The notes: generated by a model not told the origin, from the sequence alone. Counted from the first letter of the stretch, positions 3,754 through 61,828 are shown. The stretch: DNA of 64,000 nt from a virus (IMGVR_UViG_3300020048_000085); one strand, 5' to 3'. Numbers and translations: made by a program.

Positions 3754-3762
3754 TATTAATTA

Positions 3763-16621: not shown

Positions 16622-16624
16622 AAG

Positions 16625-17239: not shown

Positions 17240-17583
17240 AGATTGAATTTCTTTAAGTTTTTATTTATTTCTAATTCTTCTAATGTCTTTCCAGTTGCAA
17301 CAACATCAGAATATTTAAAACTTTTTATTCCACAATTATTTTTTTTGTCAATGAAAAACATTTTTAAATCATCTGGAATATTATCATATTTAACATAAAT
17401 TCTATACCATTGGTTTGATGGTTTTGCATAATCATCAAGTAAAAAACTATCAATTATTCCAATTGTATTATTTATAAAATTTCTCAAATCAATTAATATT
17501 TCACTCGGATAATTCGTTAATATATAATCACCAACAGAAAATTCTGGTATCATATTTTCAAATATTTTAAATTGTGTTATCAT
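17236..17583 (-). CDS. FKxFE/KKFNL family paralog (MITQFKIFEN ... LKKFNL)
   Basis: Family motifs and ATGA overlaps. Confidence 0.6.
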   Translation of the reverse strand: MITQFKIFENMIPEFSVGDYILTNYPSEILIDLRNFINNTIGIIDSFLLDDYAKPSNQWYRIYVKYDNIPDDLKMFFIDKKNNCGIKSFKYSDVVATGKTLEELEINKNLKKFNL

Positions 17584-18005
17584 ATATTAAATTTTTTTGA
17601 ATTTGTAATATATTTTGGTGTTTTATTTATAGCACGTTTAAATACATAAAATACATATTTAGTTATTGGATCACCAATATTATCTATTCTTGCATTATCT
17701 AAAATATATTTTATTTTATCATATAATAATATATCTTTTTCAAATTCTACGATTATTAATTCAATAGCATATTTTTTTACTTCATTGCGTATTCTATCGT
17801 CTATTTTATTATTTCCTTTTTTCCATGTGTTTGAACTGTAATATAAATTATATAATATAGAAAATATATAACTAAATTCTTCTGGTACCTTAAATATATT
17901 TTGAATAAATGATGTATCTTTTTTATACATTCTATCATAATAATTTAAATAATAATCAACCATAGATTGATCATATTTTTCAAATATTTTAAATTGTGTT
18001 ATCAT
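17580..18005 (-). CDS. FKxFE family paralog (MITQFKIFEK ... SKKFNI)
   Basis: Family motifs and ATGA overlaps. Confidence 0.6.
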   Translation of the reverse strand: MITQFKIFEKYDQSMVDYYLNYYDRMYKKDTSFIQNIFKVPEEFSYIFSILYNLYYSSNTWKKGNNKIDDRIRNEVKKYAIELIIVEFEKDILLYDKIKYILDNARIDNIGDPITKYVFYVFKRAINKTPKYITNSKKFNI

Positions 18006-18436
18006 AAATTAAATTTTTTAGCGTTCTCAATTAAAATCAACTTGTTTATTATATCTTTTTTTCTAGGTGGAATATAACCATAAATTGTAAATGGTGAATT
18101 AACATCAACTGAGTGAATAATATGTTCATCATTTTTTAAAATTAAATCTAATGATACAAACTCTTTTACTCTTTTTTTAGCTGTTCCTGTATAACCAATA
18201 CCACATCGTTCAACTTTACTAATAATACCATTATGTTTATTTTCATAATCAACAAGTACCTTTTTAATATTATTAAAAGAATATTTACTATAAAATTTAA
18301 CATTAGTACCAGGAATCAATAAATCAGTTAGAAATTTTTTAATTTTTGTATAACTACCATTATAATATTCTAATAATGTATTTAACATAAATGTTATTTC
18401 TTCTTGTGTATCAAATGAATCAAATTTAGTAATCAT
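18002..18436 (-). CDS. FKxFE/KKFNL family paralog (MITKFDSFDT ... AKKFNL)
   Basis: Family motifs and ATGA overlap. Confidence 0.6.
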   Translation of the reverse strand: MITKFDSFDTQEEITFMLNTLLEYYNGSYTKIKKFLTDLLIPGTNVKFYSKYSFNNIKKVLVDYENKHNGIISKVERCGIGYTGTAKKRVKEFVSLDLILKNDEHIIHSVDVNSPFTIYGYIPPRKKDIINKLILIENAKKFNL

Positions 18437-18442
18437 ATAATT

Positions 18443-18826
18443 TTATTTTTTTCTTAAATATGAAAAAACAACATCAAAAAATATTAGTTTAATACAAAAT
18501 GCTATTATAACCCATAAGAATGAAAAATTTAATACTATTATAATAGAAGCAATAATCATTAATAATTCAGATAAAAACCAAAATAAATGCCACGCATCAG
18601 TAAAAATAACAAATATAGTAGTACTACCTAAAAATTTTTCACCACTATGTGGATCATTATTTTTATATTTATTTAATGAACCTAATCCTTGCTCCCAAAA
18701 ATTTGGATTTAAATGATATTTCAAATATAATTTAGATTTATAAAATAAATTAGGAGATGATGATAAATCAGTAATTGATTTTGCAACTCCAGATAGGAAC
18801 AATAGTATTATAATTAATATTATCAT
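18443..18826 (-). CDS. Predicted small integral membrane protein (at least 3 hydrophobic helices)
   Basis: MIILIIILLFLSGVAKS... followed by a long hydrophobic C-terminal stretch. It is embedded in the paralog array. Confidence 0.4.
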   Translation of the reverse strand: MIILIIILLFLSGVAKSITDLSSSPNLFYKSKLYLKYHLNPNFWEQGLGSLNKYKNNDPHSGEKFLGSTTIFVIFTDAWHLFWFLSELLMIIASIIIVLNFSFLWVIIAFCIKLIFFDVVFSYLRKK

Positions 18827-18828
18827 AT

Positions 18829-19248
18829 TTATAAATTGAATTTTTTTGTTTCTTTATTTATATTTATTTCATCTATGATATCTTTAATATCATCAGGAAT
18901 AATACCATAAATATTCATTGGAGAATTTGTGTCTACATCATGTTTATATCTTATTCCTTTTAATTTTATTGTTAAAAAAATATAGTTAAATTCTTTATTA
19001 AAACCATAACCAAATCCCCTCACAACACCTTTATGTTGTTTATTTGAGTGCATGAAATAATTTAATCCTTTAATATCTTCTGTGCATTTTTTACATTCGA
19101 ATTTAATAACATTATTTTTAATTTCAAGTAATTTAAATATAAAATCACTTATAGATTCATTATCACCATTAAAATAACCAATAATATCATTTATTGTTAA
19201 TGTTACTTTATTTCCTGTATTTTCAAATAATTTGAATTGAGTTATCAT
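18829..19248 (-). CDS. FKxFE/KKFNL family paralog (MITQFKLFEN ... TKKFNL)
   Basis: Family motifs. The element ttatatatac lies immediately upstream of its ATG on the minus strand. Confidence 0.6.
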   Translation of the reverse strand: MITQFKLFENTGNKVTLTINDIIGYFNGDNESISDFIFKLLEIKNNVIKFECKKCTEDIKGLNYFMHSNKQHKGVVRGFGYGFNKEFNYIFLTIKLKGIRYKHDVDTNSPMNIYGIIPDDIKDIIDEININKETKKFNL

Positions 19249-20792: not shown

Positions 20793-23700
20793 ATGAAAAT
20801 TGTACACTTGGCTGATGTTCATATCAGAAATATTGAAAGACATGATGAATACAATACTATTTTTAGTAAAATAGTAAATAAATTAAAAGAATTAAAACCA
20901 GATAGAATAGTTATAGTTGGTGATTTGTTTGAAAGTTATATTGAAATTTCAAATGAAGCACAAATTATTGCAGGATTTTTTTTGACTGAATTATCTAAAA
21001 TTGCTAAAGTTATAATTACTCGTGGTAATCATGATATTCGTAAAAAGAATATAAACAGAGTAGATAGTATAGAAACAGTTATAAAATTGCTCAATAATAA
21101 AAATATTAATTACTATGATAAAACTGGTTTTTATGATGATGAAGATGATTTTGTTTGGGTTGTATATGAACACGCAGACAAATTAAATAATCCTTGGTCA
21201 AATAAGAAAAAAGAAGATGATAAAATATATATTGGTTTATTTCATGATCCAATTTTAAACGTCACGTCTAATACAGGTAGAATATTTAATGATTCTGCTA
21301 AATATAAAAATATTAATTATTTTAAAAATAATAATTTTTTGATGATTGGTGATATCCATAAACGCCAATTTTTAAGAGAAAATAAATCTGCTGCATATTG
21401 TGGTTCAACAATTCAACAAACATTTGGAGAAACAGTTGAAAAACATGGTTTCCTATTATGGGATATAAAATCATCTACTGATTTTGATATTACTGAATGT
21501 GATATTAAAAATGAATATACATTAATAAATTTATTTGTTGATGAAAATTCTGATTATGATAACTTAAATTTATCTGCAGATAATATTGGATTATATCCTG
21601 AATTTAAAGTACATTGGAAAGATTATTCTTCTAATATTAACACAGTAAATGAAAAAAAGATACGAGATTATATTAAAGAAAAATTTAATACAACTCAAGT
21701 AATTTTTGATAAAACTTATTTATATACAGATGTTTTATCATCTAAAATGCTTTCAGAATCTATTGATTTGACAGATGCTCAAACACAAAGAGAAATATTT
21801 GAAGAATATTTAAAAGAGCAAAAATATAAAACAGATGATATTGAATCAATACTTAATATTGATGATATTATTAATAGTAGAATTCAATTAACAGAACAAT
21901 TAAAAAATAATGAATGGAGTATTGATAAATTTTGGTTCAGCAATTTTAAATCTTATGGTGATGATAATGTTGTTGATTGGAGTGATATTTCAGGTTTAGT
22001 ACAAATTCATGGAGAAAATCAAGAAGGTAAAACTACAATTCTTGATGCTCTTATGTATATACTATATGGTAAAACAACCACAACATTAAGTCCAGAAAAA
22101 TTTGGAGATAATAGATATATAAACAATAAAAGGGATTTAAATAGTGTTAGTGGTGGAGCAATAATTAGTACTAATGGTAATAAATTTGTTATTCAAAGAA
22201 GCACAGAAAGAGTTTGGAATAAAAATAAAACTGCTTTAAGTGGTTGTCCAACTGTGTTAGATTTTTATAAGAGTGATGTTATTTGTGAAGAAAATAAGAT
22301 AACTGGTGAGCTTAAAAGTACAACACAAAAAGAATTAGATATAATATTAGGTGATTTGAAAGATTTCATTAGACTATCATTCACAAATGCTGATAATTTA
22401 AATGATTTATTATCTGAAACTAGAAGTGTGTTTATGGATAGTATTATTAGAGATGCTGGATATGATATATTTGAGACTAAATTAAATGAATTTAAGGAAT
22501 ATAAGAAAGAATTAACAGAAGAAAAATTAATAATTAATATTCAAGATTCTGAATTAACAATAGCTGATTTGAAATCTGATATTGATAGTAAGAGAGAAGA
22601 TATAAAGATTAATGATATTCAAATAATAGAATTTGTTGTTGATTTAAAAACAAATAATAAAAGTAGAGATAATTTAAATAAAAATTTAAATAATATTGAT
22701 TCTTCTATGATTAATTTTGATGAGGATTTGAATTTAAATTCAATTGAAAATTACAAAGATAAAATTGAAGAAGCGAAAATACAAACAACTATTTTAAATA
22801 GAGAAATTGATAAATTACCAGATAATTTTGATCCAACTAAATTAAATGAGTATAAAATTAAGTTAAAACAAACAAACAATAAAATATCTGAAAGGAAAGA
22901 TGAAATATCAAATCTTAGAAGATCATTAACAGAATCAGACAATAAAATAGATAAGGTAGATTCTAAAATAGTAGAATTGAAACAATCTGAAATTAAAAAG
23001 ATTTCTTTGAAAATTAGTGATAATGAATTAAATATTGAAGTTATTAAGAACAAAAAAGAGAATATAATAAAAGATGAATTAAAACAATTAACATCATCTA
23101 TTCAAAAAATTGAATTGGATAAAAGTGAAATAACATCTCAAATGAAACTATTACAACGAGATGGTGTAAATTCTAAAAAGTCGAATGATGAATTAGATAA
23201 AGAAATTGAAACCTTTAGAGATTCAAAATCTTGTCCAAGTTGTGGTCGTGATTATGATAAAAATGATCCAAAATATTCAGAGCACATATTACATTTAGAA
23301 GAAAAAATTAAAAGTCTTGAAAATAAAAAAGATGCTAATGATTTAATAATTCAAAAAAGTCTAAGTGAATATAATAAATTGAAATTGTCTATATCTGATT
23401 TTGATGATAAAATATCAAAATTAAAAGATAATAAAGATGATATAATAAAAGGAGTTTACTCAGAAGATATTCTAACTAAATTGAAAGTTGTTGGTAGTAG
23501 TAACCAATTAAAACAAGATAATATTGATTTAAATATATTAATAAATAATATAGAAAATGATAAATTTGAAAATTTAGATTCATTAAAAGAAAATATTGAA
23601 AAAGGTAATAAATTAAAAGAAAATATTGAAAAAAGTAAATCAGATACATTATTAGTCATAAAAAATATTGAATCAGAATTAAAAAATTTTGATATAGATG

Positions 23701-24542
23701 GTATTGAAAATGATATATCTATTGAAGAAACAAACAGAGATAATTTTGAATTAAGAAATAAAAAAGTTTCAAAGAAAGATAATATACAATTAACTATTGA
23801 AAATTTTAATTTAAAAATTAAAGATTTAAATTCAGAAATTGATAAATATCAATCACACAAAATTAAAATAGAAGAAAATAAACTAATACAAGATGATATT
23901 GATGAAATTGATAAAAAGATAACATCTATTAATGATGAAATTAAAAAATTAGAACAAGATAATATCAACAAGGAAAAGGATATGCTTCTTAAGCAAAATG
24001 AGATTCATTTAATTGTAACTAAAATTGAAAAGTATTTAGAACAAAAGAAAAAAGAAGAATTGCTGAAAGAATATCAGAAATGTATATCAAGAGATGGTTT
24101 ACCAACATTCTTATTGAAAAAATCTATTCATCTAATCAATAAAGAAATGTCTGAATTGTTAGTTAATGTTGATTTTACTTTATTTTTTGATGAAAATTTA
24201 ATATTAAGACTTAGTGCAAATGATAGATTGGATGTTAGTCAAAATGCAATTGAGAGTTCAGGTAAAGAAAGAACATTCTGTGCATTAGCACTTAAAATTT
24301 CATTAAGACAAATAAATGTAAAATCAAAACCAACATTTATAGTATTAGATGAAATAATGGGGAAATTAATTGATGGTAAAAAAACCAAATCAATAGAGCA
24401 ATTTGCAAATTTCTTAGATGATTTAAAACACAAAGTAAATAAAATAATAATAATTGAACATGTGCATAATATAAATTATGATGCATTAATTGAAGTTGAA
24501 AAAGATGAAAATTTAATTTCACATTTGGAATTAAATTATTAA
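20793..24542 (+). CDS. sbcCD: Single-polypeptide SbcD(Mre11)-SbcC(Rad50) fusion, a DNA double-strand-break processing nuclease/ATPase
   Basis: N-terminal calcineurin-like phosphoesterase motifs (DVH, VGDLF, RGNHD). These are followed by the Rad50/SbcC Walker A GENQEGKTT, a long coiled coil with a CPSCGR zinc hook, and a C-terminal Walker B/D-loop FIVLDEIMGKL. Confidence 0.8.
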   Translation: MKIVHLADVHIRNIERHDEYNTIFSKIVNKLKELKPDRIVIVGDLFESYIEISNEAQIIAGFFLTELSKIAKVIITRGNHDIRKKNINRVDSIETVIKLLNNKNINYYDKTGFYDDEDDFVWVVYEHADKLNNPWSNKKKEDDKIYIGLFHDPILNVTSNTGRIFNDSAKYKNINYFKNNNFLMIGDIHKRQFLRENKSAAYCGSTIQQTFGETVEKHGFLLWDIKSSTDFDITECDIKNEYTLINLFVDENSDYDNLNLSADNIGLYPEFKVHWKDYSSNINTVNEKKIRDYIKEKFNTTQVIFDKTYLYTDVLSSKMLSESIDLTDAQTQREIFEEYLKEQKYKTDDIESILNIDDIINSRIQLTEQLKNNEWSIDKFWFSNFKSYGDDNVVDWSDISGLVQIHGENQEGKTTILDALMYILYGKTTTTLSPEKFGDNRYINNKRDLNSVSGGAIISTNGNKFVIQRSTERVWNKNKTALSGCPTVLDFYKSDVICEENKITGELKSTTQKELDIILGDLKDFIRLSFTNADNLNDLLSETRSVFMDSIIRDAGYDIFETKLNEFKEYKKELTEEKLIINIQDSELTIADLKSDIDSKREDIKINDIQIIEFVVDLKTNNKSRDNLNKNLNNIDSSMINFDEDLNLNSIENYKDKIEEAKIQTTILNREIDKLPDNFDPTKLNEYKIKLKQTNNKISERKDEISNLRRSLTESDNKIDKVDSKIVELKQSEIKKISLKISDNELNIEVIKNKKENIIKDELKQLTSSIQKIELDKSEITSQMKLLQRDGVNSKKSNDELDKEIETFRDSKSCPSCGRDYDKNDPKYSEHILHLEEKIKSLENKKDANDLIIQKSLSEYNKLKLSISDFDDKISKLKDNKDDIIKGVYSEDILTKLKVVGSSNQLKQDNIDLNILINNIENDKFENLDSLKENIEKGNKLKENIEKSKSDTLLVIKNIESELKNFDIDGIENDISIEETNRDNFELRNKKVSKKDNIQLTIENFNLKIKDLNSEIDKYQSHKIKIEENKLIQDDIDEIDKKITSINDEIKKLEQDNINKEKDMLLKQNEIHLIVTKIEKYLEQKKKEELLKEYQKCISRDGLPTFLLKKSIHLINKEMSELLVNVDFTLFFDENLILRLSANDRLDVSQNAIESSGKERTFCALALKISLRQINVKSKPTFIVLDEIMGKLIDGKKTKSIEQFANFLDDLKHKVNKIIIIEHVHNINYDALIEVEKDENLISHLELNY

Positions 24543-25700: not shown

Positions 25701-26855
25701 ATGGTAATAAACGTAAAGAGTGAGACTGCAATGTCTGGATTTTATATTATATTTAAAGGATCAACTATGAATGAAAAACCTGGTTGGTATGGAATTAGTC
25801 ACCTATGTGAACATATTCTTTGTAAGGCTATATTTCATTTACAAGATACATATCAACAAAAAAATATAAAATGGAATGCATATACTTCGGTAGATACTGT
25901 AGTTTTTTATATGACAGGGATTGATAGACACATAAACAAATATAAAAATGATTTTTTAAATTTATTATTAGATTTTAAACCTACACAAAAACAATTGGAT
26001 AATGAAAAGAAAATTGTTTTAGAAGAGTATAAAATGAGTTTCAATTCACAAATTGAATCTCACTATTTTAATTTACAGAGAAAGATGTTAAGTTATTATA
26101 ATCCTATTGGACTCAGATCTGATATTGAAAATATAACATTACAAGATTGTAATGATTATTTAGATTTATATTTTAAGAATCCAACAAAAATAATAAATGT
26201 ATCAAAATTTAATGATTTTGAAACAGATATAAAATTCAAAGTTGAGATAGATGTTAAACCATTTGAATTTAAAATAAATGATAATTTGTATATTATAACA
26301 TCTGACGATAATACAGATGTACCTAAAGGTATGATACCATTAGAAATTATCACAGAATTTAAAAATAAAGTTAGTATAATTGATGTCTCAACTATGCTTA
26401 CAAAAGATTTTGCATATGCATCATTTGTGTGTGAGATGTTAAGTTCAGGTTTAAATTCTCCATTATATAAAGAGGTTAGAGAAAAATTAGGATTAGTTTA
26501 TTACATAAGTTGTTCATTAGATAAATTAAATGATAAATCTTGTTCAATAAGTATTATCACTAACACATCTAAAAATAATATTGAACGTGTACAACATGAG
26601 ATAAAGAATATATTACAAAACAAAGAAATATATTTAACTCAAGAAAGATTTGATATCATAAAAGATAAGCAACTCACAAAAATTGAAGAAAATGAGATTT
26701 TAAATAATAATATTTCTAAATATATGGAAAATCCTGAATGGATGATTGAAAATATTATAAACACTATAACATTAGATGATGTGTATAGAGTGGTTGATGA
26801 ATATCTAAATTGGGATAATATGTATAAATCTGTAGATATTAATGAATTTTCTTAA
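25701..26855 (+). CDS. M16-family (insulinase/pitrilysin/MPP-like) zinc metallopeptidase
   Basis: An inverted zinc-binding motif HxxEH in the typical context GISHLCEHILCK, close to the N-terminus. The size is consistent with one M16 active unit. Confidence 0.55.
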   Translation: MVINVKSETAMSGFYIIFKGSTMNEKPGWYGISHLCEHILCKAIFHLQDTYQQKNIKWNAYTSVDTVVFYMTGIDRHINKYKNDFLNLLLDFKPTQKQLDNEKKIVLEEYKMSFNSQIESHYFNLQRKMLSYYNPIGLRSDIENITLQDCNDYLDLYFKNPTKIINVSKFNDFETDIKFKVEIDVKPFEFKINDNLYIITSDDNTDVPKGMIPLEIITEFKNKVSIIDVSTMLTKDFAYASFVCEMLSSGLNSPLYKEVREKLGLVYYISCSLDKLNDKSCSISIITNTSKNNIERVQHEIKNILQNKEIYLTQERFDIIKDKQLTKIEENEILNNNISKYMENPEWMIENIINTITLDDVYRVVDEYLNWDNMYKSVDINEFS

Positions 26856-26967
26856 TTAATATATAAATATATTTTTTTAACTATATTATAAATCACTAAT
26901 TATCAATAAGTTATAATTATTATTCAAAATATATAATAAAATGTTTTTTTATTATGATTATTATTAG

Positions 26968-26975
26968 TAAATTTG
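26968..26975 (+). promoter_or_regulatory. Weak TAAATTTG (TAnnTTTG-type) candidate promoter upstream of clpS
   Basis: It matches TAnnTTTG about 50 nt upstream of the clpS ATG. There is no clear -33 TTTG. Confidence 0.2.
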
Positions 26976-27026
26976 CACTGTCAATTAATAATTAAAAATT
27001 ATAATAAAGTTAATATATAACAAATT

Positions 27027-27323
27027 ATGGAAATAAACACAAAAACCAAGTCTTTGGAAGAAATTTTATCTGAGAATGGAATTTCTACAAACACAGAAAA
27101 AGAAAGTAAATTGATATTATGGAATGATGATGTCAACTCTTTTGAATGGGTAATAATATGTTTAATAATGTATTTAAAGTTTACACCAGAAAGAGCAGAA
27201 ACAACAGCTTATAATGTTCATCTTAAAGGAAAAGATATTATTAAAACTGGCTCAAAAGAAGATTTAGAGCCATATAAAAAATTACTAGAAGAAAGAGGAT
27301 TAAGTTTAACAATAGAAACATAA
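27027..27323 (+). CDS. clpS: ClpS, the N-degron (N-end rule) adaptor for ClpA/ClpC
   Basis: LILWNDDVNSFEWVI...AYNVHLKGK aligns with the ClpS core, including the NDD substrate-pocket residues and the conserved His. It has the size and operon position of canonical clpS-clpA. Confidence 0.8.
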   Translation: MEINTKTKSLEEILSENGISTNTEKESKLILWNDDVNSFEWVIICLIMYLKFTPERAETTAYNVHLKGKDIIKTGSKEDLEPYKKLLEERGLSLTIET

Positions 27324-27324
27324 A

Positions 27325-27555
27325 ATGAAAAAAATAATAATAAATTATATTTTATATGTTTATCACAATTATATTCAAAATGATGAATTTGATAATATAT
27401 ATAAAGAGTGGGCTAAACCTTTTATGATGGTACTTAAATATATACACAATGTATACATGTGGATATTTTGTATTATATTTTTTCCAGTTATTTTAATCTT
27501 AATGATGATTGATAGCTATATGAAAAAAAATAGAAAAAAAATAAAAAAATTATGA
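27325..27555 (+). CDS. Small hydrophobic protein between clpS and the unfoldase gene
   Basis: 76 aa with a predicted TM helix (IFCIIFFPVILILMMI). It is tightly packed with ATGA-type overlaps on both sides. Confidence 0.35.
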   Translation: MKKIIINYILYVYHNYIQNDEFDNIYKEWAKPFMMVLKYIHNVYMWIFCIIFFPVILILMMIDSYMKKNRKKIKKL

Positions 27556-30095
27556 ATTATTCAAAAGATGTAGAATTTGCGATTAAAACAAGTAAGGATA
27601 TTGCTATTAAAATTGGCTCAAATACAATTAGACCTGAGCATATTTTTTTAGCTATGATTGAGGATGAATATTCTGACGCATGTCTTATTATGAAAGAGTT
27701 AAACTTAAATGTTGACGCAATCAAACAGACTATTTATCAGTGGTCTATGGTTGAACAATCAGGTAAAGGAATAAACAATCTTAGGAAAAATGCAGCAATT
27801 CCTCTTGATATGGAAACAGAGAAAATATTAAAAAGTTCTGTTGTTTTTGCCAAATCAATGGAATCAGATGACGTAGAGATTGATCATGTTTTTTATTCAA
27901 TTTTAGATAATGAAAACAATATAGTTAATTTATTATTAAATAAATCGCCTGGTATTTTAAATAGTTTAAAACGTAGATTGAAGAATGAAGATATTGATGA
28001 TTATACAAACAACTTAAATGAAGATAGTATGGAAGAAGGTATGGAAGAAGGAGAAGTAAAAACAGATTCAAAAAATAAATCAAAAACAAAATTACTTGAT
28101 CAATTTGGTACAAATTTAACAAACTTAGCAAAAGAAGGTAAGTTAGATCCAGTGGTTGGTCGTGTAAATGAGATTAAAAGAATCTCACAAATTTTATCCA
28201 GACGTAAGAAAAATAATCCTGTTTTGATTGGTGAGCCAGGTGTTGGTAAATCAGCTATTGCTGAAGGAATTGCTCAATTAATTGCAGATGGTAAAGTACC
28301 TGAAAATTTACAAAACAAGAGAATCATCACACTTGATATGGGTTCGTTAGTTGCGGGAACTAAATATAGAGGTGAGTTTGAGCAAAGAATGAAAGGTATT
28401 GTTAAAGAAATGGAAGAGAATAGTGATATTATTCTTTTCATTGATGAGATACATACTATTATTGGCGCTGGAGCATCACAAGGATCTCTAGATGCATCTA
28501 ATATGTTAAAACCAGCTTTGGGAAAAGGTACTTTTAGATGTATTGGTGCAACAACATTAGATGAATATCGTAAATATATTGAAAAGGACCCAGCATTAGA
28601 ACGTAGATTTCAAAAAGTTATAGTTGATTCTACTACAAAATCTGAAACATTAGAAATTCTTAAAAATATAAAAGCTCAATATGAGACTCATCATAAAGTT
28701 AAATATACTGATGACGCTTTAATCGCTTGTGTAGAATTATCAGATAAATACATATCAGACAAATTTTTACCTGATAAGGCAATTGATGCACTTGATGAAG
28801 CAGGTGCTATGGTTCATGTTAATAGAACAAGTGATATTCCAGATAAATTAGTAAATCTAAATAATAAAATCAAAGAATCTACTATTTTAAAATTAGATTG
28901 TGTAAAAAATCAAAAATTTGAATTGGCTGCTGAACACAGAGACAATGAGAAACAATGGAAATTAGAAGTTGATGAAATAAGAACAAATTGGAAGCAAGAA
29001 ATATCTAATACTATATCAACTGTAACTAAAGATGATGTGGCAGCAGTTATTTCACTTATGACAAAAATTCCAATTGATAGTGTATCTACAGATGAAAATG
29101 ATAAACTTATCGGTATGCCAGAAAAAGTTAAAAAACTTGTTATTGGTCAAGATGACGCAGTAGATAAAATTGTACAATCTGTTAAAAGATCAAGAATTGG
29201 ATTAAATAGCCATAATAAGCCAGTAGGTACATTTATTTTCTTAGGACCAACAGGAGTAGGTAAAACATACTTAGCAAAAATTATGGCAAAAGAATTATTT
29301 GGTTCCGAGGATTCATTAATTAGAATAGATATGAGTGAATTTATGGAGAAATTTTCTGTATCTCGTTTAGTTGGTGCACCTCCAGGATATGTTGGATATG
29401 AAGATGGTGGAAAATTAACAGAAGCAGTTAGACGCAAACCTTATTCAATTGTTCTTTTCGATGAAATGGAAAAAGCTCATTCAGATGTTCAAAATATTTT
29501 ACTTCAAGTATTAGATGATGGTTTTTTAACTGATAGTAATGGTCGCAAAGTTGATTTTAGAAATACTATTATTATTATGACATCAAATGCTGGTTCTAGA
29601 AAAGTAAAAGATTTTGGGAATGGTATTGGATTTGGTAGTATCTCTTCAAATAATCAAGAAAAGAGAAATGATGTTATAAAAAAAGAACTCGAAAAATTAT
29701 TTAGTCCAGAGTTTTTAAATAGAATTGATGAAATTGTAAATTTCAACTCTTTAAGTAAAGAAAATATCATTTCTATTATTGATGTAGAATGTAAATATTT
29801 GATTAATAATCTTAAAGAAAAAGGTTATGATGTCACAATATCAAACTCACTTAAAGATTACTTAGTTGAAAATGGATATGATGAAAATTATGGTGCAAGA
29901 CCACTCAAGAGAGCAATACAAAAACATATTGAAGATAGACTTATAGACGCTATCATAAGTAAAGAAATTGCTGTAGGTGATACAATATCATTATTATATG
30001 ATACTGAAAGTCAATCTGTTAAAATTTCAAAATTATCACCAAACTTTTTGGTTGATAATGTATTAAAATTAAATGAAAGTACTCCTGAAGTTTAA
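27552..30095 (+). CDS. clpC: ClpA/ClpC-type Hsp100 AAA+ unfoldase (Clp_N domain, two AAA modules, IGF ClpP-docking loop)
   Basis: Clp N-domain at the N-terminus. Walker A motifs GEPGVGKSAIAEG and LGPTGVGKTYLAK. A short UVR-like linker rather than a ClpB M-domain. SNAGSRKVKDFGNGIGFGS aligns with the ClpA IGL ClpP-binding loop, which is absent from ClpB. Confidence 0.85.
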   Translation: MNYSKDVEFAIKTSKDIAIKIGSNTIRPEHIFLAMIEDEYSDACLIMKELNLNVDAIKQTIYQWSMVEQSGKGINNLRKNAAIPLDMETEKILKSSVVFAKSMESDDVEIDHVFYSILDNENNIVNLLLNKSPGILNSLKRRLKNEDIDDYTNNLNEDSMEEGMEEGEVKTDSKNKSKTKLLDQFGTNLTNLAKEGKLDPVVGRVNEIKRISQILSRRKKNNPVLIGEPGVGKSAIAEGIAQLIADGKVPENLQNKRIITLDMGSLVAGTKYRGEFEQRMKGIVKEMEENSDIILFIDEIHTIIGAGASQGSLDASNMLKPALGKGTFRCIGATTLDEYRKYIEKDPALERRFQKVIVDSTTKSETLEILKNIKAQYETHHKVKYTDDALIACVELSDKYISDKFLPDKAIDALDEAGAMVHVNRTSDIPDKLVNLNNKIKESTILKLDCVKNQKFELAAEHRDNEKQWKLEVDEIRTNWKQEISNTISTVTKDDVAAVISLMTKIPIDSVSTDENDKLIGMPEKVKKLVIGQDDAVDKIVQSVKRSRIGLNSHNKPVGTFIFLGPTGVGKTYLAKIMAKELFGSEDSLIRIDMSEFMEKFSVSRLVGAPPGYVGYEDGGKLTEAVRRKPYSIVLFDEMEKAHSDVQNILLQVLDDGFLTDSNGRKVDFRNTIIIMTSNAGSRKVKDFGNGIGFGSISSNNQEKRNDVIKKELEKLFSPEFLNRIDEIVNFNSLSKENIISIIDVECKYLINNLKEKGYDVTISNSLKDYLVENGYDENYGARPLKRAIQKHIEDRLIDAIISKEIAVGDTISLLYDTESQSVKISKLSPNFLVDNVLKLNESTPEV

Positions 30096-30110: not shown

Positions 30111-30148
30111 AAAAAAGCTCAAAATTAAAATTTTGAGCTTTTTTTTAT
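30111..30148. terminator. Bidirectional intrinsic terminator after clpC
   Basis: Stem gctcaaaatt / aattttgagc with a T-run of 9. It lies between convergent genes. Confidence 0.6.
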
Positions 30149-34810: not shown

Positions 34811-36355
34811 TTAAAAATTATTTGAATATATCATTTTTAAATTACCAGAATCATATATTCTATAATATTTTAGTTCTAACATTATTTCATGTTCTGTTTT
34901 ATTAGAATCGTATCCATTTTTAATTAATATGTTTTTCTTGAAATTGAATCTATTATACCTAATATTATCAATTATATAATAATATTCAGGATTGGTAATA
35001 CTATTCAATTCAAATCCAATTTTTTCATATTTATCTATATTGTTTTTTGTTCTATCTATATGAACTATTATTTTATCATGATTATAATTATTAATAAAAT
35101 AATTAAAAAGTGCTGATATACTATCTATTATATTAGTATTAATTTTATTACAAAATCTTAACATCTCATAATTATTATTTTTATCTTTGTTTTTTATCAT
35201 ACCAAATATCATAATACTAACTAATTCATTTTTATAAAAAAGTCCAATTTTTACTTTAGAGCCAATATATCCTTGAATATGATTAGTATTAAGAAAATAT
35301 TTAACTAATTTATCATCAAAAATTTCTTTTATTTCACAATCAGTAATATCAATATTGTTTTCTAGTAAATATAATTTGTTTAATATCAAAGATTTAATCA
35401 AATCTTGTTTATATAACCACTCATCTTCAAAAATATGAATTAATTGTACTCCTTTTTTTTCACATAAATTAGTTTTATTTAAATGATAATTATTTTCTTT
35501 ATATAATTCAGAATGCCAATGTATTCCATTAAACTCAAATGCTAATTTTAAATCAGGTAAATATATATCAATTTCATATGGTTTAGTAATATTCTTAGAA
35601 TTTAATATTATTATACCATTATAATTATCACTAATAAAATTTTTAAGTTGAATTTCAAGTCCTGATATTTGTTTTGATACAGGATTACAAGTTGTACATA
35701 ATATAGTATTACATTTTTTCCTGGCATAAAAAAGAGTATCATTAATTAAATAATTATTATCACAAATATCACAATGAGCTAAATAATTATGATCTATAAC
35801 ATCAATTATATTATTGTCTATTATCATTTGTTCTCTAATTTTTAAATTATATTTTTTTCTAAATTCTTTATGTTGAAATGTGTTTTTTACTCCATATCTT
35901 TCTATATTTGTTTTTTCTATTTTGTTTTTGAATTCATCATATTGAATAGCAAATTCAACATTATATTTTTTTAACATACTAGATTTCATAAGTTCTATAT
36001 TTTGAAGAGGAGTAGCATAACCATATCTTTCTATGTTTGTATTCTTTTGTTTTTCTTTACATTTATCTAATTTAGATGGATATTCTATTCCATATCTTTC
36101 TAAATTTGTTCGTCTCATTTTTTTTAACACATCTTTATTTTGCGTTGTAGCAACGCAACCATATCTTTCTAAATTAGTAATTTTAGCTTTTTCTGCTGAA
36201 CATTTATGACAATAGCATTTTTCTATCATTCCTTTTGTTATTTTAAAATATGTTCTATATTCCATTTCTTTCTCTCTACCACATATATCACAACTAGTAT
36301 TTATAATATAATGACTACCTTTTGTTAATTCTGTTTGTAATTCTGTTAGTATCAT
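34811..36355 (-). CDS. Putative homing-type endonuclease: N-terminal Cys cluster, at least 5 tandem N[IL]ERYG repeats, and a C-terminal Vsr/PD-(D/E)xK-like nuclease fold
   Basis: Repeats TNLERYGC..., TNLERYGIEY..., TNIERYGYAT..., TNIERYGVKN... The C-terminal EIDIYLPDLKLAFEFNGIHWHSE resembles the Vsr FxDGxFWH core. Confidence 0.45.
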   Translation of the reverse strand: MILTELQTELTKGSHYIINTSCDICGREKEMEYRTYFKITKGMIEKCYCHKCSAEKAKITNLERYGCVATTQNKDVLKKMRRTNLERYGIEYPSKLDKCKEKQKNTNIERYGYATPLQNIELMKSSMLKKYNVEFAIQYDEFKNKIEKTNIERYGVKNTFQHKEFRKKYNLKIREQMIIDNNIIDVIDHNYLAHCDICDNNYLINDTLFYARKKCNTILCTTCNPVSKQISGLEIQLKNFISDNYNGIIILNSKNITKPYEIDIYLPDLKLAFEFNGIHWHSELYKENNYHLNKTNLCEKKGVQLIHIFEDEWLYKQDLIKSLILNKLYLLENNIDITDCEIKEIFDDKLVKYFLNTNHIQGYIGSKVKIGLFYKNELVSIMIFGMIKNKDKNNNYEMLRFCNKINTNIIDSISALFNYFINNYNHDKIIVHIDRTKNNIDKYEKIGFELNSITNPEYYYIIDNIRYNRFNFKKNILIKNGYDSNKTEHEIMLELKYYRIYDSGNLKMIYSNNF

Positions 36356-37477: not shown

Positions 37478-38638
37478 ATGAACAAAGAATTAATTGAAGG
37501 AGTAAATATTGGAAATTTACCTGATCCATTTCCATACTTAAACAACAATAAAATTAGAAAAATCAAAAGTTCTGGTGATCTTAATGAAGAATACAGGGCA
37601 ATGTACGAAAAAATGGAATTATCTTTATCGACAACTAAAGAAGTTAGAGTAAATGAGGTAGTTACAGGTACAATAAAATCAATAAACCAAAAAGAAATTT
37701 TAATTGATTTTGGATTTAAAGATTTTATATATGTTGAAAAACCAAAATTAAATACAGTAATTACAGAATTAGTAACAGGTGAGATTATTGATGTATTAAT
37801 CACTAGTGTATCAGAAAAACCATATTTAATAAAGGGTTCTATAACTGAACTTATCAAGCAGAATGTTCATAATAAAATGAAATCTTATTATGACGGTAAT
37901 TTAACACTTATTGCAGAAGTTAAATCAATTATTCCAGCAGGATATAATATGAATATTATTATGGATAATGTTAAGATAGAAGCATTTATGCCAAATACAC
38001 TAGCAGATGTAAACAAATTAACAGACTCTGAATCTATCTTAGGTTCAACATTTGAAGTTATGTTAGAAACATTACAACAAGAAAAAGGAGTATATGTTGT
38101 ATCAAGAAGAAAGTATTTACAATCATTAATACCAGAAGAAATAACTAAATTAAAACATGATATTGTTTATCAAGGTTATATTACAGGCACAACACCATTT
38201 GGAATATTTGTTCAATTTAAAGCAACAGAAGATGGTCCTAATTGCTTAACTGGTATGGTTCATAAAGCTAATATTGCAGAAAATTGGCAAAGTAAATGGG
38301 ATAGTATACTTCCTGGTATGACAATCGAATTTTATGTTAAAGAAGTAATAAAAGGAAATAAAATAATCTTAACACAAATATTAAAAGAATCCTTATGGGA
38401 TAGTATTAAAGTTGGCAAAATATTAACTGGTAAAATAAGAGTAATTAAAAATTTTGGTGCACTTATAGCATTAGATGATGAAACTACTGGTTTAATTCAA
38501 ACGTCATATATTAATAGATATGATAAAAAATTAAATGTTGGTGATGAAGTTAAAGTTAAAGTAATATCTTTAATAAAAGATGATAGAAAAATTTATCTAA
38601 ATTTCGCTGATGCAAAATACAAAAGAGATGATGTATAA
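37478..38638 (+). CDS. Ribosomal protein S1-like protein with four S1 (OB-fold) domains
   Basis: Repeated S1 signatures, for example YQGYITGTTPFGIFVQFKATEDGPNCLTGMVHKANI and LTGKIRVIKNFGALIALDDETTGLIQTSYI...VGDEVKVKVISLIKDDRKIYL. Confidence 0.6.
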   Translation: MNKELIEGVNIGNLPDPFPYLNNNKIRKIKSSGDLNEEYRAMYEKMELSLSTTKEVRVNEVVTGTIKSINQKEILIDFGFKDFIYVEKPKLNTVITELVTGEIIDVLITSVSEKPYLIKGSITELIKQNVHNKMKSYYDGNLTLIAEVKSIIPAGYNMNIIMDNVKIEAFMPNTLADVNKLTDSESILGSTFEVMLETLQQEKGVYVVSRRKYLQSLIPEEITKLKHDIVYQGYITGTTPFGIFVQFKATEDGPNCLTGMVHKANIAENWQSKWDSILPGMTIEFYVKEVIKGNKIILTQILKESLWDSIKVGKILTGKIRVIKNFGALIALDDETTGLIQTSYINRYDKKLNVGDEVKVKVISLIKDDRKIYLNFADAKYKRDDV

Positions 38639-38640
38639 AA

Positions 38641-38672
38641 AAAGAGAGAATCAAATGATTCTCTCTTTTTTG
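38641..38672 (+). terminator. Intrinsic terminator after the S1-like gene
   Basis: Stem gagagaatc / gattctctc (38644-38665) with loop aaat and a T-run of 6. Confidence 0.65.
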
Positions 38673-38721
38673 TTTATATTGTTTCTGTATATTATATCAA
38701 TAATATAATCTTTTTTATTTT

Positions 38722-38757
38722 TAATAAAAAAAACACCACAAATTGTGGTGTTTTTTA
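38722..38757. terminator. Bidirectional intrinsic terminator (serves nusG on the minus strand)
   Basis: Stem acaccaca / tgtggtgt with a 3-nt loop, an A7 run upstream and a T5 run downstream. Confidence 0.6.
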
Positions 38758-38764
38758 ATGATAA

Positions 38765-39283
38765 CTAATCTAAATCTTTAATAAATTGTGTTCCAATTAA
38801 ATCTAATATAACTTCTCTGTCGAATACATTAACTGCAACTTTATATTTTTGTTTTTGTTTATTAATATCAATATTCTTTATAACACCTTTGAATGTATTA
38901 AATGGACCATCAATTATTCTTACTTTTTCTTTAATATAAAAAACATCTATATCACTAACAACATCATTAGATGGTGTTTTATCTAATAATCTATTAACTT
39001 CAGATTCTCTTAATGGTTTAGTCAATAATGATTGAACACCATCTATATATTTAACAAATCCAGCAACCTCATTTACCAAATCACATTCAACAAAAATATA
39101 ACCTGGAATAATAATTTTTTCTACATTTATTTTTTTACCATTTCTTAATTGTTGAGCTTTATTTGAAGGTACTAATATATTTATTATTAAATTATTTAGT
39201 TCTTTTCTTTTTAATTCAGCTTCAATTAATTCTTTTACTTTTTTTTCTTTACCATTTGCAACTTTTATAACATACCATTTCAT
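38765..39283 (-). CDS. nusG: NusG-like transcription antitermination/elongation factor (NGN + KOW domains); the start is at the internal Met (MKWYVIKV), not the 39337 start of the longest ORF
   Basis: NGN domain WYVIKVANGKEKKVKELIE... and KOW motif VRIIDGPFNTFKGVIKNIDI...KVAVNVFDREV. The 18-codon upstream extension is rejected because it runs into a 16-bp perfect terminator hairpin. Confidence 0.7.
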   Translation of the reverse strand: MKWYVIKVANGKEKKVKELIEAELKRKELNNLIINILVPSNKAQQLRNGKKINVEKIIIPGYIFVECDLVNEVAGFVKYIDGVQSLLTKPLRESEVNRLLDKTPSNDVVSDIDVFYIKEKVRIIDGPFNTFKGVIKNIDINKQKQKYKVAVNVFDREVILDLIGTQFIKDLD

Positions 39284-39327
39284 GTTTTTTATTTTATTTT
39301 TATAATTATTATATAAACATTTAAAAT

Positions 39328-39362
39328 AAAAGTTCAAAAAATATTATATTTTTTGAACTTTT
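39328..39362 (-). terminator. Strong intrinsic terminator (16-bp perfect stem) between two minus-strand genes
   Basis: aaaagttcaaaaaata - tta - tattttttgaactttt. On the minus strand it is followed by a U-rich tract. It lies between 39367..39837 and nusG. Confidence 0.65.
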
Positions 39363-39366
39363 ATTT

Positions 39367-39837
39367 TTAATATCTTCTTATAATAGTTTTATATTTTGGT
39401 GGTTCTACTGAAGGTATATAATTAGGCTCACCATTAGCTTTATCATTATACTCATCTCTGAATATATTATTTTTTTCTATGTTTTGATTTCTAGGTATTG
39501 ATATAGAATCATCATTTTTTTTTCTATCTCTTTTTTCATCTTTTTTTAATCTTTGATTAATAAATTCTCTAATATAATTATGGGCAGATTTTAAATCATT
39601 CTTCTTTTTATTTCTTAACCTGATGTTTTCACCTTCTGATGTTTTTTTAAAAATCTTACAAATAAAAAAACTACCAGATTTTTCTATTTTAGCAAAATAA
39701 TAGGGAGTACTATTTCCAGATTTATATTTTATCTCACCAGCATATACTTTAGGATTATATTTGGCTTTACCACTAGTAAATAAATTATCATCTATGATAT
39801 TATTTTTCCAAGTTTCGAATGTTTTAATATTTTTCAT
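39367..39837 (-). CDS. Basic protein starting MKNIKTFETW (dispersed FKxFE-family N-terminus), function unknown
   Basis: It has the N-terminal family motif. The C-terminal half is Lys/Arg-rich. Confidence 0.45.
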   Translation of the reverse strand: MKNIKTFETWKNNIIDDNLFTSGKAKYNPKVYAGEIKYKSGNSTPYYFAKIEKSGSFFICKIFKKTSEGENIRLRNKKKNDLKSAHNYIREFINQRLKKDEKRDRKKNDDSISIPRNQNIEKNNIFRDEYNDKANGEPNYIPSVEPPKYKTIIRRY

Positions 39838-42281: not shown

Positions 42282-42328
42282 TCAATAAAAATAATTTATA
42301 AATAAAAACAATTTAATTTAAAAAAAAC

Positions 42329-61794: not shown

Positions 61795-61828
61795 AAAAAC
61801 GTGGTGTATTATGCACCACGTTTTTTAT
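61795..61828. terminator. Bidirectional intrinsic terminator between ligA and the convergent GIY-YIG gene
   Basis: Stem aacgtggtg / caccacgtt followed by T6. Confidence 0.6.

What the first reader, a model, noticed from the sequence alone, without database searches (positions are those of the whole stretch)
27027..30095. Phage-borne clpS - (small membrane ORF) - clpA/C operon: a possible virus-encoded N-degron proteolysis pathway
A complete ClpS adaptor with the NDD N-degron pocket is followed by a two-ring Hsp100 unfoldase. The unfoldase has a ClpA-like IGF ClpP-docking loop, so it is not a ClpB-type disaggregase. The operon order is the classic bacterial clpS-clpA one. ClpS delivers proteins with N-terminal Phe/Leu/Trp/Tyr to ClpAP. 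The effector family in this same window has a conserved N-terminal module in which Phe residues sit at positions 5 and 8 (M-I-T-Q-F-K-I-F-E). Endoproteolytic removal of the first few residues would expose an N-terminal Phe, which is a canonical ClpS N-degron. A possible processing protease is the M16 peptidase encoded 200 bp upstream; deformylase is encoded in the same window. The phage could therefore carry a self-contained timed-degradation system for its own accessory proteins or for host targets.
Basis: partly seen in the sequence, partly recalled or inferred. Interest (0 to 1): 0.85.

Follow-up and report, generated by a model that had tools for sequence, protein, structure and literature searches.

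The report
Huge-phage clpS–membrane ORF–clpC operon
A very AT-rich huge phage related to the largest known phages carries a conserved three-gene operon for the ClpS N-degron adaptor, a small membrane protein and a full-length ClpC unfoldase; phage copies of these genes are already known, and the proposed link to the phage's own "effector" proteins has no support.

Summary
Window 27027-27323 encodes a ClpS with conserved N-degron-binding residues. Window 27325-27555 encodes a conserved single-pass membrane protein. Window 27552-30095 encodes a ClpC-type double-ring Hsp100 with intact Walker motifs, pore-loop tyrosines and an IGF ClpP-docking loop. The three genes are packed tightly and end at a hairpin terminator.

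The operon is conserved in a large metagenomic lineage related to the Mahaphage huge phages, on contigs up to 711 kb. Both ClpS and ClpC have Bacteroidota proteins as their closest cellular relatives. In the Bacteroidota examined the two genes are unlinked.

No clpP lies in the window. Two syntenic relatives, of 122 kb and 501 kb, carry an intact clpP about 45-55 kb from the operon, so a complete phage-encoded ClpS/ClpC/ClpP set is plausible.

It proposed that an M16 peptidase trims the "MITQFKIFE" proteins to expose Phe for ClpS. The "Phe5" position is Ile or Leu in half the members. The tag also occurs in a relative in which no ClpS was detected. M16 adjacency is not conserved. The tag resembles a capsid-targeting sequence at least as well.

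Phage ClpS, ClpA and ClpP are already described for jumbo phages. Verdict: a new member of a known kind, of moderate interest.

The parts
26856..27026 (+). 171-bp AT-rich intergenic region upstream of clpS; a possible own promoter for the operon
   Evidence: It is the gap between the M16 stop and the clpS start. One sigma-70-like site lies at 26978-27005, but the scan is uninformative in 22% GC DNA: 75 sites found against 58 +/- 7 expected. Bacteroidota-type promoters are not covered by the tool.
27027..27323 (+). clpS: 98-aa N-degron adaptor. It has a flexible N-terminal extension (residues 1-27) and a core carrying W32-N33-D34-D35-V-N37-S-F39-E-W-V42 and H65.
   Evidence: Pfam ClpS, E 2.7e-15. 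The fold matches solved ClpS-peptide complexes at rmsd 0.7-1.2 A. N33, D34, N37, F39 and V42 are invariant, and D35, V64 and H65 are at least 90% conserved, in 43 family members. It is 84% identical to relatives in which neighbouring proteins are 39-79% identical.
27120..27152 (+). ClpS pocket motif WNDDVNSFEWV (E. coli L32-V43 equivalent)
   Evidence: Alignments to E. coli, M. smegmatis, P. falciparum and Bacteroidota ClpS. Coordinates.
27325..27555 (+). 76-aa conserved membrane protein: an N-terminal aromatic/hydrophobic helix (YILYVY), one transmembrane span at residues 44-62, and a basic tail
   Evidence: It is present between clpS and clpC in every relative examined, at 76-92 aa. Conserved motifs are Y[IL]LY[IV]Y, IYKxWA, PFM, YxWI and FFP. 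The Kyte-Doolittle 19-residue maximum is 2.0-2.8. No Pfam or PHROG family matched. It starts 1 nt after the clpS stop, and its stop overlaps the clpC start in ATGA.
27552..30095 (+). clpC: 847-aa class-I Hsp100 unfoldase (N-domain, acidic linker, D1, short M-domain, D2)
   Evidence: Best solved match is full-length B. subtilis ClpC, E 3.6e-223. Pfam Clp_N, AAA, AAA_lid_9, AAA_2 and ClpB_D2-small. PHROG 4871, E 3.9e-255.
28230..28253 (+). D1 Walker A GEPGVGKS. Also D1 Walker B ILFIDEIH at 28431-28454 and the pore-1 loop KYRG at 28362-28373.
   Evidence: Motif positions; aligned to B. subtilis ClpC.
28911..28955 (+). UVR-like core of the short ClpC-type M-domain (QKFELAAEHRDNEKQ)
   Evidence: It aligns without a gap on B. 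subtilis ClpC QEFEKAASLRDTEQR. ClpB aligns as two stretches that leave about 70 of its M-domain residues unmatched.
29244..29267 (+). D2 Walker A GPTGVGKT. Also the pore-2 loop GYVG at 29385-29396 and Walker B IVLFDEMEKA at 29448-29477.
29622..29636 (+). ClpP-docking loop G-I-G-F-G (IGF tripeptide, residues 692-694)
   Evidence: It aligns on the B. subtilis ClpC V-G-F loop. [I/V/M]-G-F is present in 119 of the 120 family and Bacteroidota ClpCs scanned; the exception is a shorter 771-aa protein.
30111..30144 (.). Bidirectional hairpin terminator between clpC and the convergent DUF1599 gene
   Evidence: A 15-pair stem followed by T-runs on both strands. Only 3 terminator-like sites were found in 6 kb, against 0.7 expected.
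25701..26855 (+). M16-family metallopeptidase (384 aa) with HLCEH at residues 34-38. It is a neighbour and not demonstrably part of the module.
   Evidence: Pfam Peptidase_M16 and M16_C; motifs. Its position relative to clpS varies or it is absent in relatives.

Best explanation
This is a conserved operon of a Mahaphage-related huge phage whose host is probably in the Bacteroidota. It encodes a cognate adaptor-unfoldase pair for Clp proteolysis.

Proposed mechanism:
- ClpS binds proteins with a free N-terminal bulky hydrophobic residue (Phe, Trp, Tyr or Leu) in its conserved pocket.
- ClpS docks on the N-domain of the phage ClpC and hands the substrate to the ClpC pore.
- The ClpC hexamer unfolds the substrate and feeds it into a ClpP barrel, to which it is attached by its IGF loops.
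- ClpP is most likely phage-encoded elsewhere in the genome, as in two syntenic relatives. Otherwise it is the host's ClpP.
- The co-transcribed small membrane protein is an accessory of unknown role, perhaps a membrane tether or regulator.

Biological role: phage-controlled remodelling or quality control of the infected cell's proteome, in a genome that also carries deformylase, S1, NusG and flotillin/NfeD genes.

Shown: gene identities, motif integrity, operon structure, conservation, synteny, and ClpP co-occurrence in relatives. Inferred: the physical ClpS-ClpC-ClpP interactions, the degron specificity and the substrates.
For: - ClpS family, fold and pocket residues.
- ClpC architecture with all catalytic and pore motifs.
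- The IGF loop is present in 119 of the 120 ClpCs scanned.
- Tight gene packing and a terminator.
- clpS-small ORF-clpC synteny in IMG/VR, JGI and ENA contigs of 64-531 kb. ClpS is the best-conserved protein in the neighbourhood.
- 89 ClpS clusters at 60% identity or more; several of the matching ClpC clusters have the same longest-contig lengths, up to 711 kb.
- Intact ClpP on the same contig as the operon in Ga0212088_10000228 (122 kb) and Ga0453684_0000059 (501 kb).
- Mahaphages LR756502 and LR756504 carry ClpS, a ClpC homologue and ClpP.
- Only the window lineage among 80 viral ClpC loci has both a Clp_N domain and an adjacent ClpS. About 65 of the others are N-domain-less. This fits the established fact that ClpS binds the N-domain.
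- Phage affiliation and Bacteroidota link (PMC7162821).
Against: - No ClpP in the window, and none could be located for the closest relatives.
- No biochemical data.
- The gate residue is Phe instead of E. coli Met40, and Met62 is Ala. Specificity may therefore differ, although Bacteroidota ClpS share the Phe.
- The second N-domain repeat of ClpC is divergent; only one Clp_N repeat was scored by Pfam.
- No L/F-transferase or other degron-generating enzyme was identified.
- The role of the membrane ORF is unknown.
Confidence: 0.7

Rival explanations
1. The M16 peptidase clips the first residues of the MITQFKIFE-tagged accessory proteins and exposes Phe. ClpS-ClpC-ClpP then degrades them on a timer.
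For: - The tag is real. It is enriched at N-termini: 14 of 98 ORFs against 5.5% at internal Met positions.
- It is constrained at the protein level.
- An M16 peptidase with HxxEH lies in the same syntenic region in three sub-lineages.
- F-K at a new N-terminus would be a good degron (established ClpS specificity).
Against: - The position equivalent to Phe5 is Ile or Leu in the MKYIKTFE subtype.
- There is no evidence of cleavage.
- M16 is absent from the locus in the closest relatives, which keep clpS-clpC.
- The tag is also present in LR756501, where no ClpS was detected.
- The tagged proteins belong to unrelated families, including an ankyrin-repeat protein. This fits a targeting signal.
Confidence: 0.05
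2. ClpC acts mainly as a ClpP-independent unfoldase or chaperone, for example in assembly of the very large virion or in disaggregation. ClpS acts only as its regulator.
For: - Jumbo-phage AAA+ chaperones have been proposed to act as translocases or assembly aids (PMC7824862).
- No ClpP is in the window.
- Structural-looking genes, a 626-aa protein and an Ig-domain protein, lie just downstream.
Against: - The ClpP-docking IGF tripeptide is present in 119 of the 120 homologues scanned.
- ClpP co-occurs on the same contigs in two relatives.
- The M-domain is the short ClpC type, not the ClpB/Hsp104 disaggregase type.
Confidence: 0.12
3. The phage ClpS chiefly targets the host. It binds host ClpC or ClpA N-domains to block host adaptors or redirect host proteolysis, and the phage ClpC is incidental.
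For: - ClpS is known to switch ClpA substrate choice (titles of PDB entries 1MG9 and 1LZW).
- Iyer et al. propose that jumbo-phage ClpS brings targets to the host ClpAP.
- LR756502 has ClpS, but its ClpC homologue aligns only from residue 176, so it appears N-domain-less.
Against: In the window lineage clpS is co-transcribed with a full-length, N-domain-bearing clpC. That pairing is unique among 80 viral loci, which argues for a cognate pair.
Confidence: 0.08
4. The genes are host-derived passengers or assembly contamination with no phage function.
For: The closest cellular homologues are Bacteroidota. The region has a higher GC content, 29% against 22%.
Against: - The identities to Bacteroidota are only 52-54% for ClpC and about 40% for ClpS.
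- The operon and its flanks are conserved across many viral contigs.
- The genes are unlinked in the cellular genomes sampled.
- All motifs are intact.
Confidence: 0.02

Closest known systems
E. coli clpS-clpA operon with ClpP (bacterial N-degron / Leu-Phe N-end rule pathway)
   Same: The adaptor gene lies directly upstream of the double-ring unfoldase. The ClpS fold and the alpha-amino-binding Asn/Asp/His are shared. The unfoldase has an IGF/IGL-type ClpP loop. clpP is encoded elsewhere.
   Different: The unfoldase here is ClpC-type, with a short UVR-like M-domain. A conserved membrane-protein gene sits between the two genes. The pocket gate is Phe where E. coli has Met40, and Ala where it has Met62. 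The system is virus-encoded.
ClpS-ClpC(1)-ClpP systems of actinobacteria, cyanobacteria and plastids (for example M. smegmatis ClpS, Arabidopsis ClpS1)
   Same: ClpS is paired with a ClpC-type partner. The ClpS model superposes best on M. smegmatis ClpS, at 0.7-0.8 A. The Asn at the E. coli Thr38 position is shared with the actinobacterial protein.
   Different: From my own knowledge, in those organisms clpS and clpC are not adjacent. Here they form one operon.
Bacteroidota ClpS and ClpC (Mucilaginibacter, Bacteroidia, Flavobacteriaceae)
   Same: They are the closest cellular relatives: ClpC at 52-54% and ClpS at about 40% identity. They share the pocket signature WND[DE]VN[ST]F..VI.CL and have a VGF ClpP loop.
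   Different: The cellular genes are unlinked and lack the small membrane ORF. The phage ClpS has a family-conserved N-terminal extension, KTLEEIL.E.GIS.
ClpS, ClpA/ClpX and ClpP genes of jumbo phages (Iyer et al. 2021, PMC7824862; PHROG 27368 and 4871) and of Mahaphages LR756502 and LR756504
   Same: These are phage-encoded Clp components, interpreted as hijacking or supplementing host proteolysis. The same clade of huge phages is involved, and ClpP is present.
   Different: In LR756502 the three genes are more than 140 kb apart and the ClpC homologue appears N-domain-less. In the window lineage clpS and a full-length clpC are fused into one operon with an extra gene.
B. subtilis ClpC with the MecA or McsB adaptors
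   Same: It is the best solved structural relative of the unfoldase, with the same domain order, pore loops and ClpP loop.
   Different: The adaptor here is ClpS, not MecA or McsB. The second N-domain repeat has Asp where B. subtilis has the Glu that I recall as part of the second phospho-arginine site. That assignment is from memory and was not tested.

Membership tests
ClpS (PF02617, bacterial N-recognin) | Significant match to the family profile | tested here: met
   Pfam E 2.7e-15, 56.4 bits against a cutoff of 23. The NCBIfam ClpS equivalog models match but below their strict cutoffs.
ClpS (PF02617, bacterial N-recognin) | ClpS alpha/beta fold | tested here: met
   The AF2 model has pLDDT above 90 over the core. 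Foldseek against PDB returns ClpS-peptide complexes, with target-normalised TM-scores up to 0.93 and rmsd 0.7-1.2 A.
ClpS (PF02617, bacterial N-recognin) | Residues that bind the substrate alpha-amino group (E. coli N34, D35, H66) | tested here: met
   They correspond to N33, D34 and H65 in the window protein. N33 and D34 are invariant and H65 is at least 90% conserved in 43 family members.
ClpS (PF02617, bacterial N-recognin) | Hydrophobic pocket selecting Phe/Leu/Trp/Tyr, with gate Met40 and Met62 in E. coli | tested here: inconclusive
   The gate is Phe39, as in Bacteroidota and P. falciparum ClpS, and the Met62 position is Ala61. The pocket is hydrophobic, but specificity cannot be read from sequence.
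ClpS (PF02617, bacterial N-recognin) | Flexible N-terminal extension needed for hand-off | tested here: met
   Residues 1-27 have low pLDDT (51-76) and precede the core. The extension is unusually well conserved within the family.
ClpS (PF02617, bacterial N-recognin) | Binds the N-domain of ClpA or ClpC | not testable with these tools
   Indirect support only: the operon partner has a Clp_N domain, whereas N-domain-less viral ClpCs lack an adjacent ClpS.
ClpC-type class-I Hsp100 (ClpP-dependent) | Two AAA+ modules with Walker A/B and pore-loop Tyr | tested here: met
   GEPGVGKS / ILFIDEIH / KYRG and GPTGVGKT / IVLFDEMEKA / GYVG.
ClpC-type class-I Hsp100 (ClpP-dependent) | Clp_N N-terminal domain | tested here: met
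   Pfam Clp_N, E 1.8e-9, for repeat 1. Residues 11-145 align with the B. subtilis ClpC N-domain. Repeat 2 is divergent.
ClpC-type class-I Hsp100 (ClpP-dependent) | Short M-domain with a UVR-like motif (not the long ClpB one, and not absent as in ClpA) | tested here: met
   One continuous alignment to ClpC, including QKFELAAEHRDNEKQ. ClpB and ClpA align in two stretches. Pfam UVR is precomputed on several family members but was not scored for the window protein.
ClpC-type class-I Hsp100 (ClpP-dependent) | [LIV]-G-[FL] ClpP-docking loop in D2 | tested here: met
   I692-G693-F694 aligns on B. subtilis ClpC V-G-F. [I/V/M]-G-F is present in 119 of 120 homologues scanned.
Self-contained phage N-degron pathway (ClpS + unfoldase + ClpP) | ClpP encoded by the same genome | tested here: inconclusive
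   Absent from the 64-kb window. Present with an intact Ser/His/Asp triad on the same contig in two syntenic relatives and in LR756502 and LR756504. The rest of this genome could not be read.
Self-contained phage N-degron pathway (ClpS + unfoldase + ClpP) | A degron-generating activity (L/F-transferase or a defined processing protease) with identified substrates | not tested
   No Leu/Phe-transferase match appeared among the 39 window ORFs scanned with Pfam, but not all small ORFs were scanned. The M16 link is conjecture.

The most novel reading that the evidence does not exclude
The conserved 76-92-aa membrane protein wedged between clpS and clpC is a previously unknown Clp accessory. It would act as a membrane tether or anti-adaptor that places the phage ClpS-ClpC-ClpP machine at the host membrane or gates it during infection. 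A second possibility is that the Phi-K-x-F-E N-terminal tags are a phage-specific degron or targeting code read by this machine.
Probability: 0.12. Interest if true: 0.6.

Novelty: new member of a known kind. Interest (0 to 1): 0.35.

Why it matters
The finding shows that a widespread lineage of huge Bacteroidota phages has assembled its own adaptor-unfoldase operon from host-type genes that are unlinked in cells. Relatives also carry ClpP. These phages can therefore probably run regulated proteolysis independently of host gene expression.

This adds to the picture of huge phages taking over core cellular processes such as translation and transcription, and now proteostasis. It also gives a compact, testable system: three small genes plus clpP.

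It does not, on present evidence, reveal a new mechanism. Phage ClpS, ClpA and ClpP genes were already catalogued.

Tried and rejected
- Exact look-up of the window ClpC gave no record. The ClpS look-up found only a 3-kb ENA contig, so the remaining 19 kb of the 83-kb source contig could not be read.
- Megablast of 24 kb against the phage collection found no match.
- The last large protein search, with an AT-rich viral ClpP (L288), returned only Bacteroidota-like ClpPs at 83-89% identity. None was on a contig shared with the ClpS/ClpC family.
- The sigma-70 promoter scan is uninformative at 22% GC.
- A ClpS:ClpC-N-domain complex prediction was not attempted, because a linker-fused ClpS-ClpC N-domain sequence falls outside the sequences the tool description says it accepts.
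- Rejected: the ClpB disaggregase reading (short M-domain, IGF loop), the ClpA reading (an M-domain is present), and host contamination (synteny across viral contigs).
Full report
**1. What is in the sequence**

The window is 22% GC throughout, with local rises to 29-31% over a few conserved genes, including the unfoldase. At the stated coordinates there are three + strand ORFs:
- 27027-27323, 98 aa.
- 27325-27555, 76 aa.
- 27552-30095, 847 aa.

The second ORF starts one base after the stop of the first. Its stop overlaps the start of the third in ATGA. A 15-bp-stem hairpin flanked by T-runs on both strands (30111-30144) separates the third gene from a convergent DUF1599 gene. A 171-bp intergenic gap precedes the first gene. 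This is the anatomy of one transcription unit.

**2. ClpS**

- The 98-aa protein matches Pfam ClpS, E 2.7e-15, and PHROG 27368.
- An AlphaFold2 model built on 43 family members has pLDDT above 90 over residues 28-98. It superposes on M. smegmatis ClpS bound to Phe-Ala or Trp-Ser at 0.7-0.8 A, and on E. coli ClpS-peptide complexes at 1.2 A.
- In the alignments, E. coli N34, D35, D36 and H66 correspond to N33, D34, D35 and H65. In 43 relatives N33 and D34 are invariant and D35 and H65 are at least 90% conserved.
- Thr38 is Asn, as in the actinobacterial protein.
- The Met40 gate is Phe, as in P. falciparum and Bacteroidota ClpS.
- Met62 is Ala.
- The N-degron-binding apparatus is therefore intact, although its exact specificity cannot be read from sequence.
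- The 27-residue N-terminal extension is disordered in the model. It is unusually well conserved within the family (KTLEEIL.E.GIS).

**3. The unfoldase is a ClpC**

- Its best solved relative is full-length B. subtilis ClpC, in one continuous alignment (E 3.6e-223). ClpB and ClpA align only in two pieces.
- This shows a short, UVR-like M-domain (QKFELAAEHRDNEKQ). It is not the long ClpB M-domain, and the domain is not missing as in ClpA.
- Both Walker A/B pairs are present, as are the KYRG and GYVG pore loops and the sensor-2 GARP.
- G-I-G-F-G at residues 691-695 aligns on the V-G-F ClpP-docking loop of B. subtilis ClpC.
- [I/V/M]-G-F is present in 119 of the 120 homologues retrieved. The phage family has mostly IGF, and the Bacteroidota have VGF.
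The name should be ClpC.

**4. The small ORF is a real gene**

- A 76-92-aa ORF lies between clpS and clpC in every relative examined.
- Conserved motifs are Y[IL]LY[IV]Y, IYKxWA, PFM, YxWI and FFP. There is one strongly hydrophobic span.
- It has no Pfam or PHROG family.
- An ENA variant of the same phage carries 43 extra bases at its 3' end. That variant has 7 more codons plus a spacer before clpC.

**5. Who carries it**

- The operon and its flanks are conserved in the order SbcCD fusion ... clpS-tm-clpC, then DUF1599 on the minus strand, then a 600-630-aa protein, then S1 and NusG. This holds in IMG/VR contigs of 64-235 kb, a JGI 235-kb contig, an ENA 531-kb contig, a JGI 122-kb contig and a JGI 501-kb contig.
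- Between the window and its nearest relatives ClpS is 84% identical and ClpC 77%. Neighbouring proteins range from 39 to 79%. The pair is under strong purifying selection.
- The big protein collection holds 89 ClpS clusters at 60% identity or more. It also holds a matching series of ClpC clusters on contigs up to 711 kb.
- Flanking proteins have their only phage-database relatives in the curated huge-phage genomes LR756500-LR756504 and LR745206. The 735-kb phage is the closest, at 42-44% identity.
- These genomes belong to the Mahaphage clade, predicted to infect Bacteroidetes (PMC7162821).
- Consistent with that, the nearest cellular ClpCs are from Flavobacteriaceae and Bacteroidia, at 52-54%. 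The nearest named cellular ClpS are from Mucilaginibacter and Bacteroidia, at about 40% with the same pocket signature.
- The 501-kb relative encodes a Por_Secre_tail protein next to the locus.

**6. The operon was assembled in the phage**

- None of 80 cellular ClpC loci has a ClpS within 6 kb.
- The clpS genes of Mucilaginibacter arboris and of a Bacteroidia MAG stand alone.
- Among 80 IMG/VR ClpC loci, about 65 encode N-domain-less proteins of 670-710 aa with no ClpS nearby. Only the window lineage combines a Clp_N domain with an adjacent ClpS.
- ClpS is known to bind the N-domain of ClpA and ClpC, so this correlation is the best in-silico support for a cognate pair.

**7. ClpP**

- The window has no ClpP by tblastn or by a profile built from 28 ClpPs; the best E-value was 0.07.
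- Mahaphages LR756502 and LR756504 carry ClpS, a ClpC homologue and a full-length ClpP with the catalytic Ser/His/Asp. The Lak phages also carry such a ClpP.
- More directly, the 121,682-bp contig with the syntenic operon (ClpC 60% identical to the window's) has an intact ClpP about 53 kb downstream.
- The 501,337-bp contig (ClpC 63% identical) has one about 45 kb away.
- The lineage therefore encodes all three components. For this particular genome that remains an inference, because the window ends 34 kb after clpC.

**8. The link to the tagged "effector" family**

- The tag is real. Sixteen ORFs were collected with M-I-T-Q-F-K-I-F-E or M-K-Y-I-K-T-F-E-type N-termini. Fourteen of 98 ORFs match the strict M-x(3-6)-F-E pattern, 13 of them tag-like, against a 5.5% background at internal Met positions.
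- Codons vary synonymously, so the constraint is on the protein.
- Beyond residue 12 the proteins fall into at least three unrelated small families plus singletons, one of them an ankyrin-repeat protein. The tag therefore behaves as a shared signal.
- When the two subtypes are aligned on the F-E, the consensus is Phi-K-x-F-E. The "Phe5" of one subtype corresponds to Ile or Leu in the other. A conserved Phe that would become an N-degron is therefore not a feature of the family.
- Residue 2 is Ile or Lys, so Met1 would not be removed by methionine aminopeptidase (established specificity). An unknown endoprotease would have to be invoked.
- The M16 peptidase has HxxEH and a downstream E..V...E. 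It follows SbcCD in three sub-lineages. It is separated from clpS by 3-4.5 kb of NAD-salvage genes in two of them. It is missing from the locus in the window's closest relatives.
- The same tags occur in LR756502 and in the 735-kb LR756501, where tblastn with the window ClpS found no match.
- A short N-terminal sequence shared by otherwise diverse proteins is what T4 uses to load internal proteins into proheads (capsid targeting sequence, PMC3012670). The T4 sequence MKTYQEFIAE and its cleavage after L/I-x-E are quoted from memory.
- On that rival reading, cleavage after ...F-E would not create a ClpS degron. Neither reading was tested.

**9. Comparison with what is known, and novelty**

- Functionally this looks like the ClpS-ClpA/C-ClpP N-degron pathway.
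- Phage-encoded ClpS, ClpA, ClpX and ClpP have already been noted for jumbo phages. ClpS was proposed to bring targets to the host ClpAP (PMC7824862). PHROGs has families for both proteins.
- Three things are new here. The first is the fusion of clpS and a full-length clpC into one operon in a widespread Mahaphage-related lineage. The second is a conserved membrane-protein gene between them. The third is the co-occurrence with clpP.
- That makes it a new member of a known kind, with a small organisational twist. It is of moderate interest.
- The most novel surviving possibility is that the small membrane protein is a new Clp accessory.

Noticed in passing
window 3313-5809 (-), 13701-15502 (+), 16301-19248 (-), 39367-39837 (-), 50653-51780 (-): Sixteen ORFs share an N-terminal tag Phi-K-x-F-E (of the MITQFKIFE and MKYIKTFE types). 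Beyond it they belong to at least three unrelated small families plus singletons. One of them, 16625-17239, is an ankyrin-repeat protein. The tag resembles a capsid-targeting or other sorting signal. It also occurs in Mahaphages LR756502 (L285) and LR756501 (L310).
   Followed up: partly
window 14060-15160 and 17230-18010 (gene junctions): Tandem members of the tagged family are joined by a conserved junction, AAAAAATTTAATTTATGAAA. The upstream gene ends ...KKFNL and its stop overlaps the next ATG. Such junctions could promote recombination or cassette shuffling.
   Followed up: no
window 27552 region versus L081 2430-2475: The window carries a 43-bp deletion relative to an otherwise identical ENA contig. 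It removes the last 7 codons of the small ORF and the spacer before clpC, creating an ATGA overlap. This is a within-population variant.
   Followed up: yes
proteins P0110, P0122, P0131, P0133, P0145, P0146, P0149-P0151, P0154, P0165 (relatives of window 27552-30095): About a dozen family ClpCs are 1166-1192 aa and carry Hom_end/Hint (intein) Pfam domains. The D2 Walker A motif is not found intact in them, which suggests an intein inserted in the D2 P-loop.
   Followed up: no
loci L008, L010-L012, L015, L017, L019 and L021-L080 (IMG/VR): Most viral ClpC homologues are N-domain-less, at about 670-710 aa with KYRG at residues 115-142. They have no ClpS nearby. They form a distinct, abundant class of phage Hsp100.
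   Followed up: partly
window 41715-43831: An NfeD-like membrane protein and a 500-aa SPFH/flotillin (Band 7) protein form a pair in a GC-richer patch (31% against 22%). This is another membrane and proteostasis-related host-type module.
   Followed up: no
window 20793-24542: A single 1249-aa ORF fuses an Mre11/SbcD-type metallophosphoesterase to an SbcC/Rad50-type ATPase. It is conserved at the head of the syntenic block in all relatives. Partial homologues occur in Tenacibaculum, Sphingomonas and Microcystis jumbo phages.
   Followed up: partly
window 37478-39337, 54053-54718, 56670-57107, 59916-61787: The window carries bacterial-type S1-domain protein, NusG, Sir2, peptide deformylase and NAD-dependent DNA ligase genes. 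It also carries homing endonucleases: HNH at 34811-36355 and GIY-YIG at 61809-62792. This is typical huge-phage cargo.
   Followed up: partly
L084 5793-9157, L308 6913-9114, L395 1835-4756: In deeper relatives an isochorismatase/nicotinamidase plus NAPRTase (NAD salvage) block sits between the M16 peptidase and clpS. It is absent from the window.
   Followed up: no
loci L103, L155, L180, L204 (IMG/VR): These are AT-rich viral contigs in which a ClpS lies within a few kb of a true ClpP. They may be another arrangement of phage Clp genes or host fragments.
   Followed up: no
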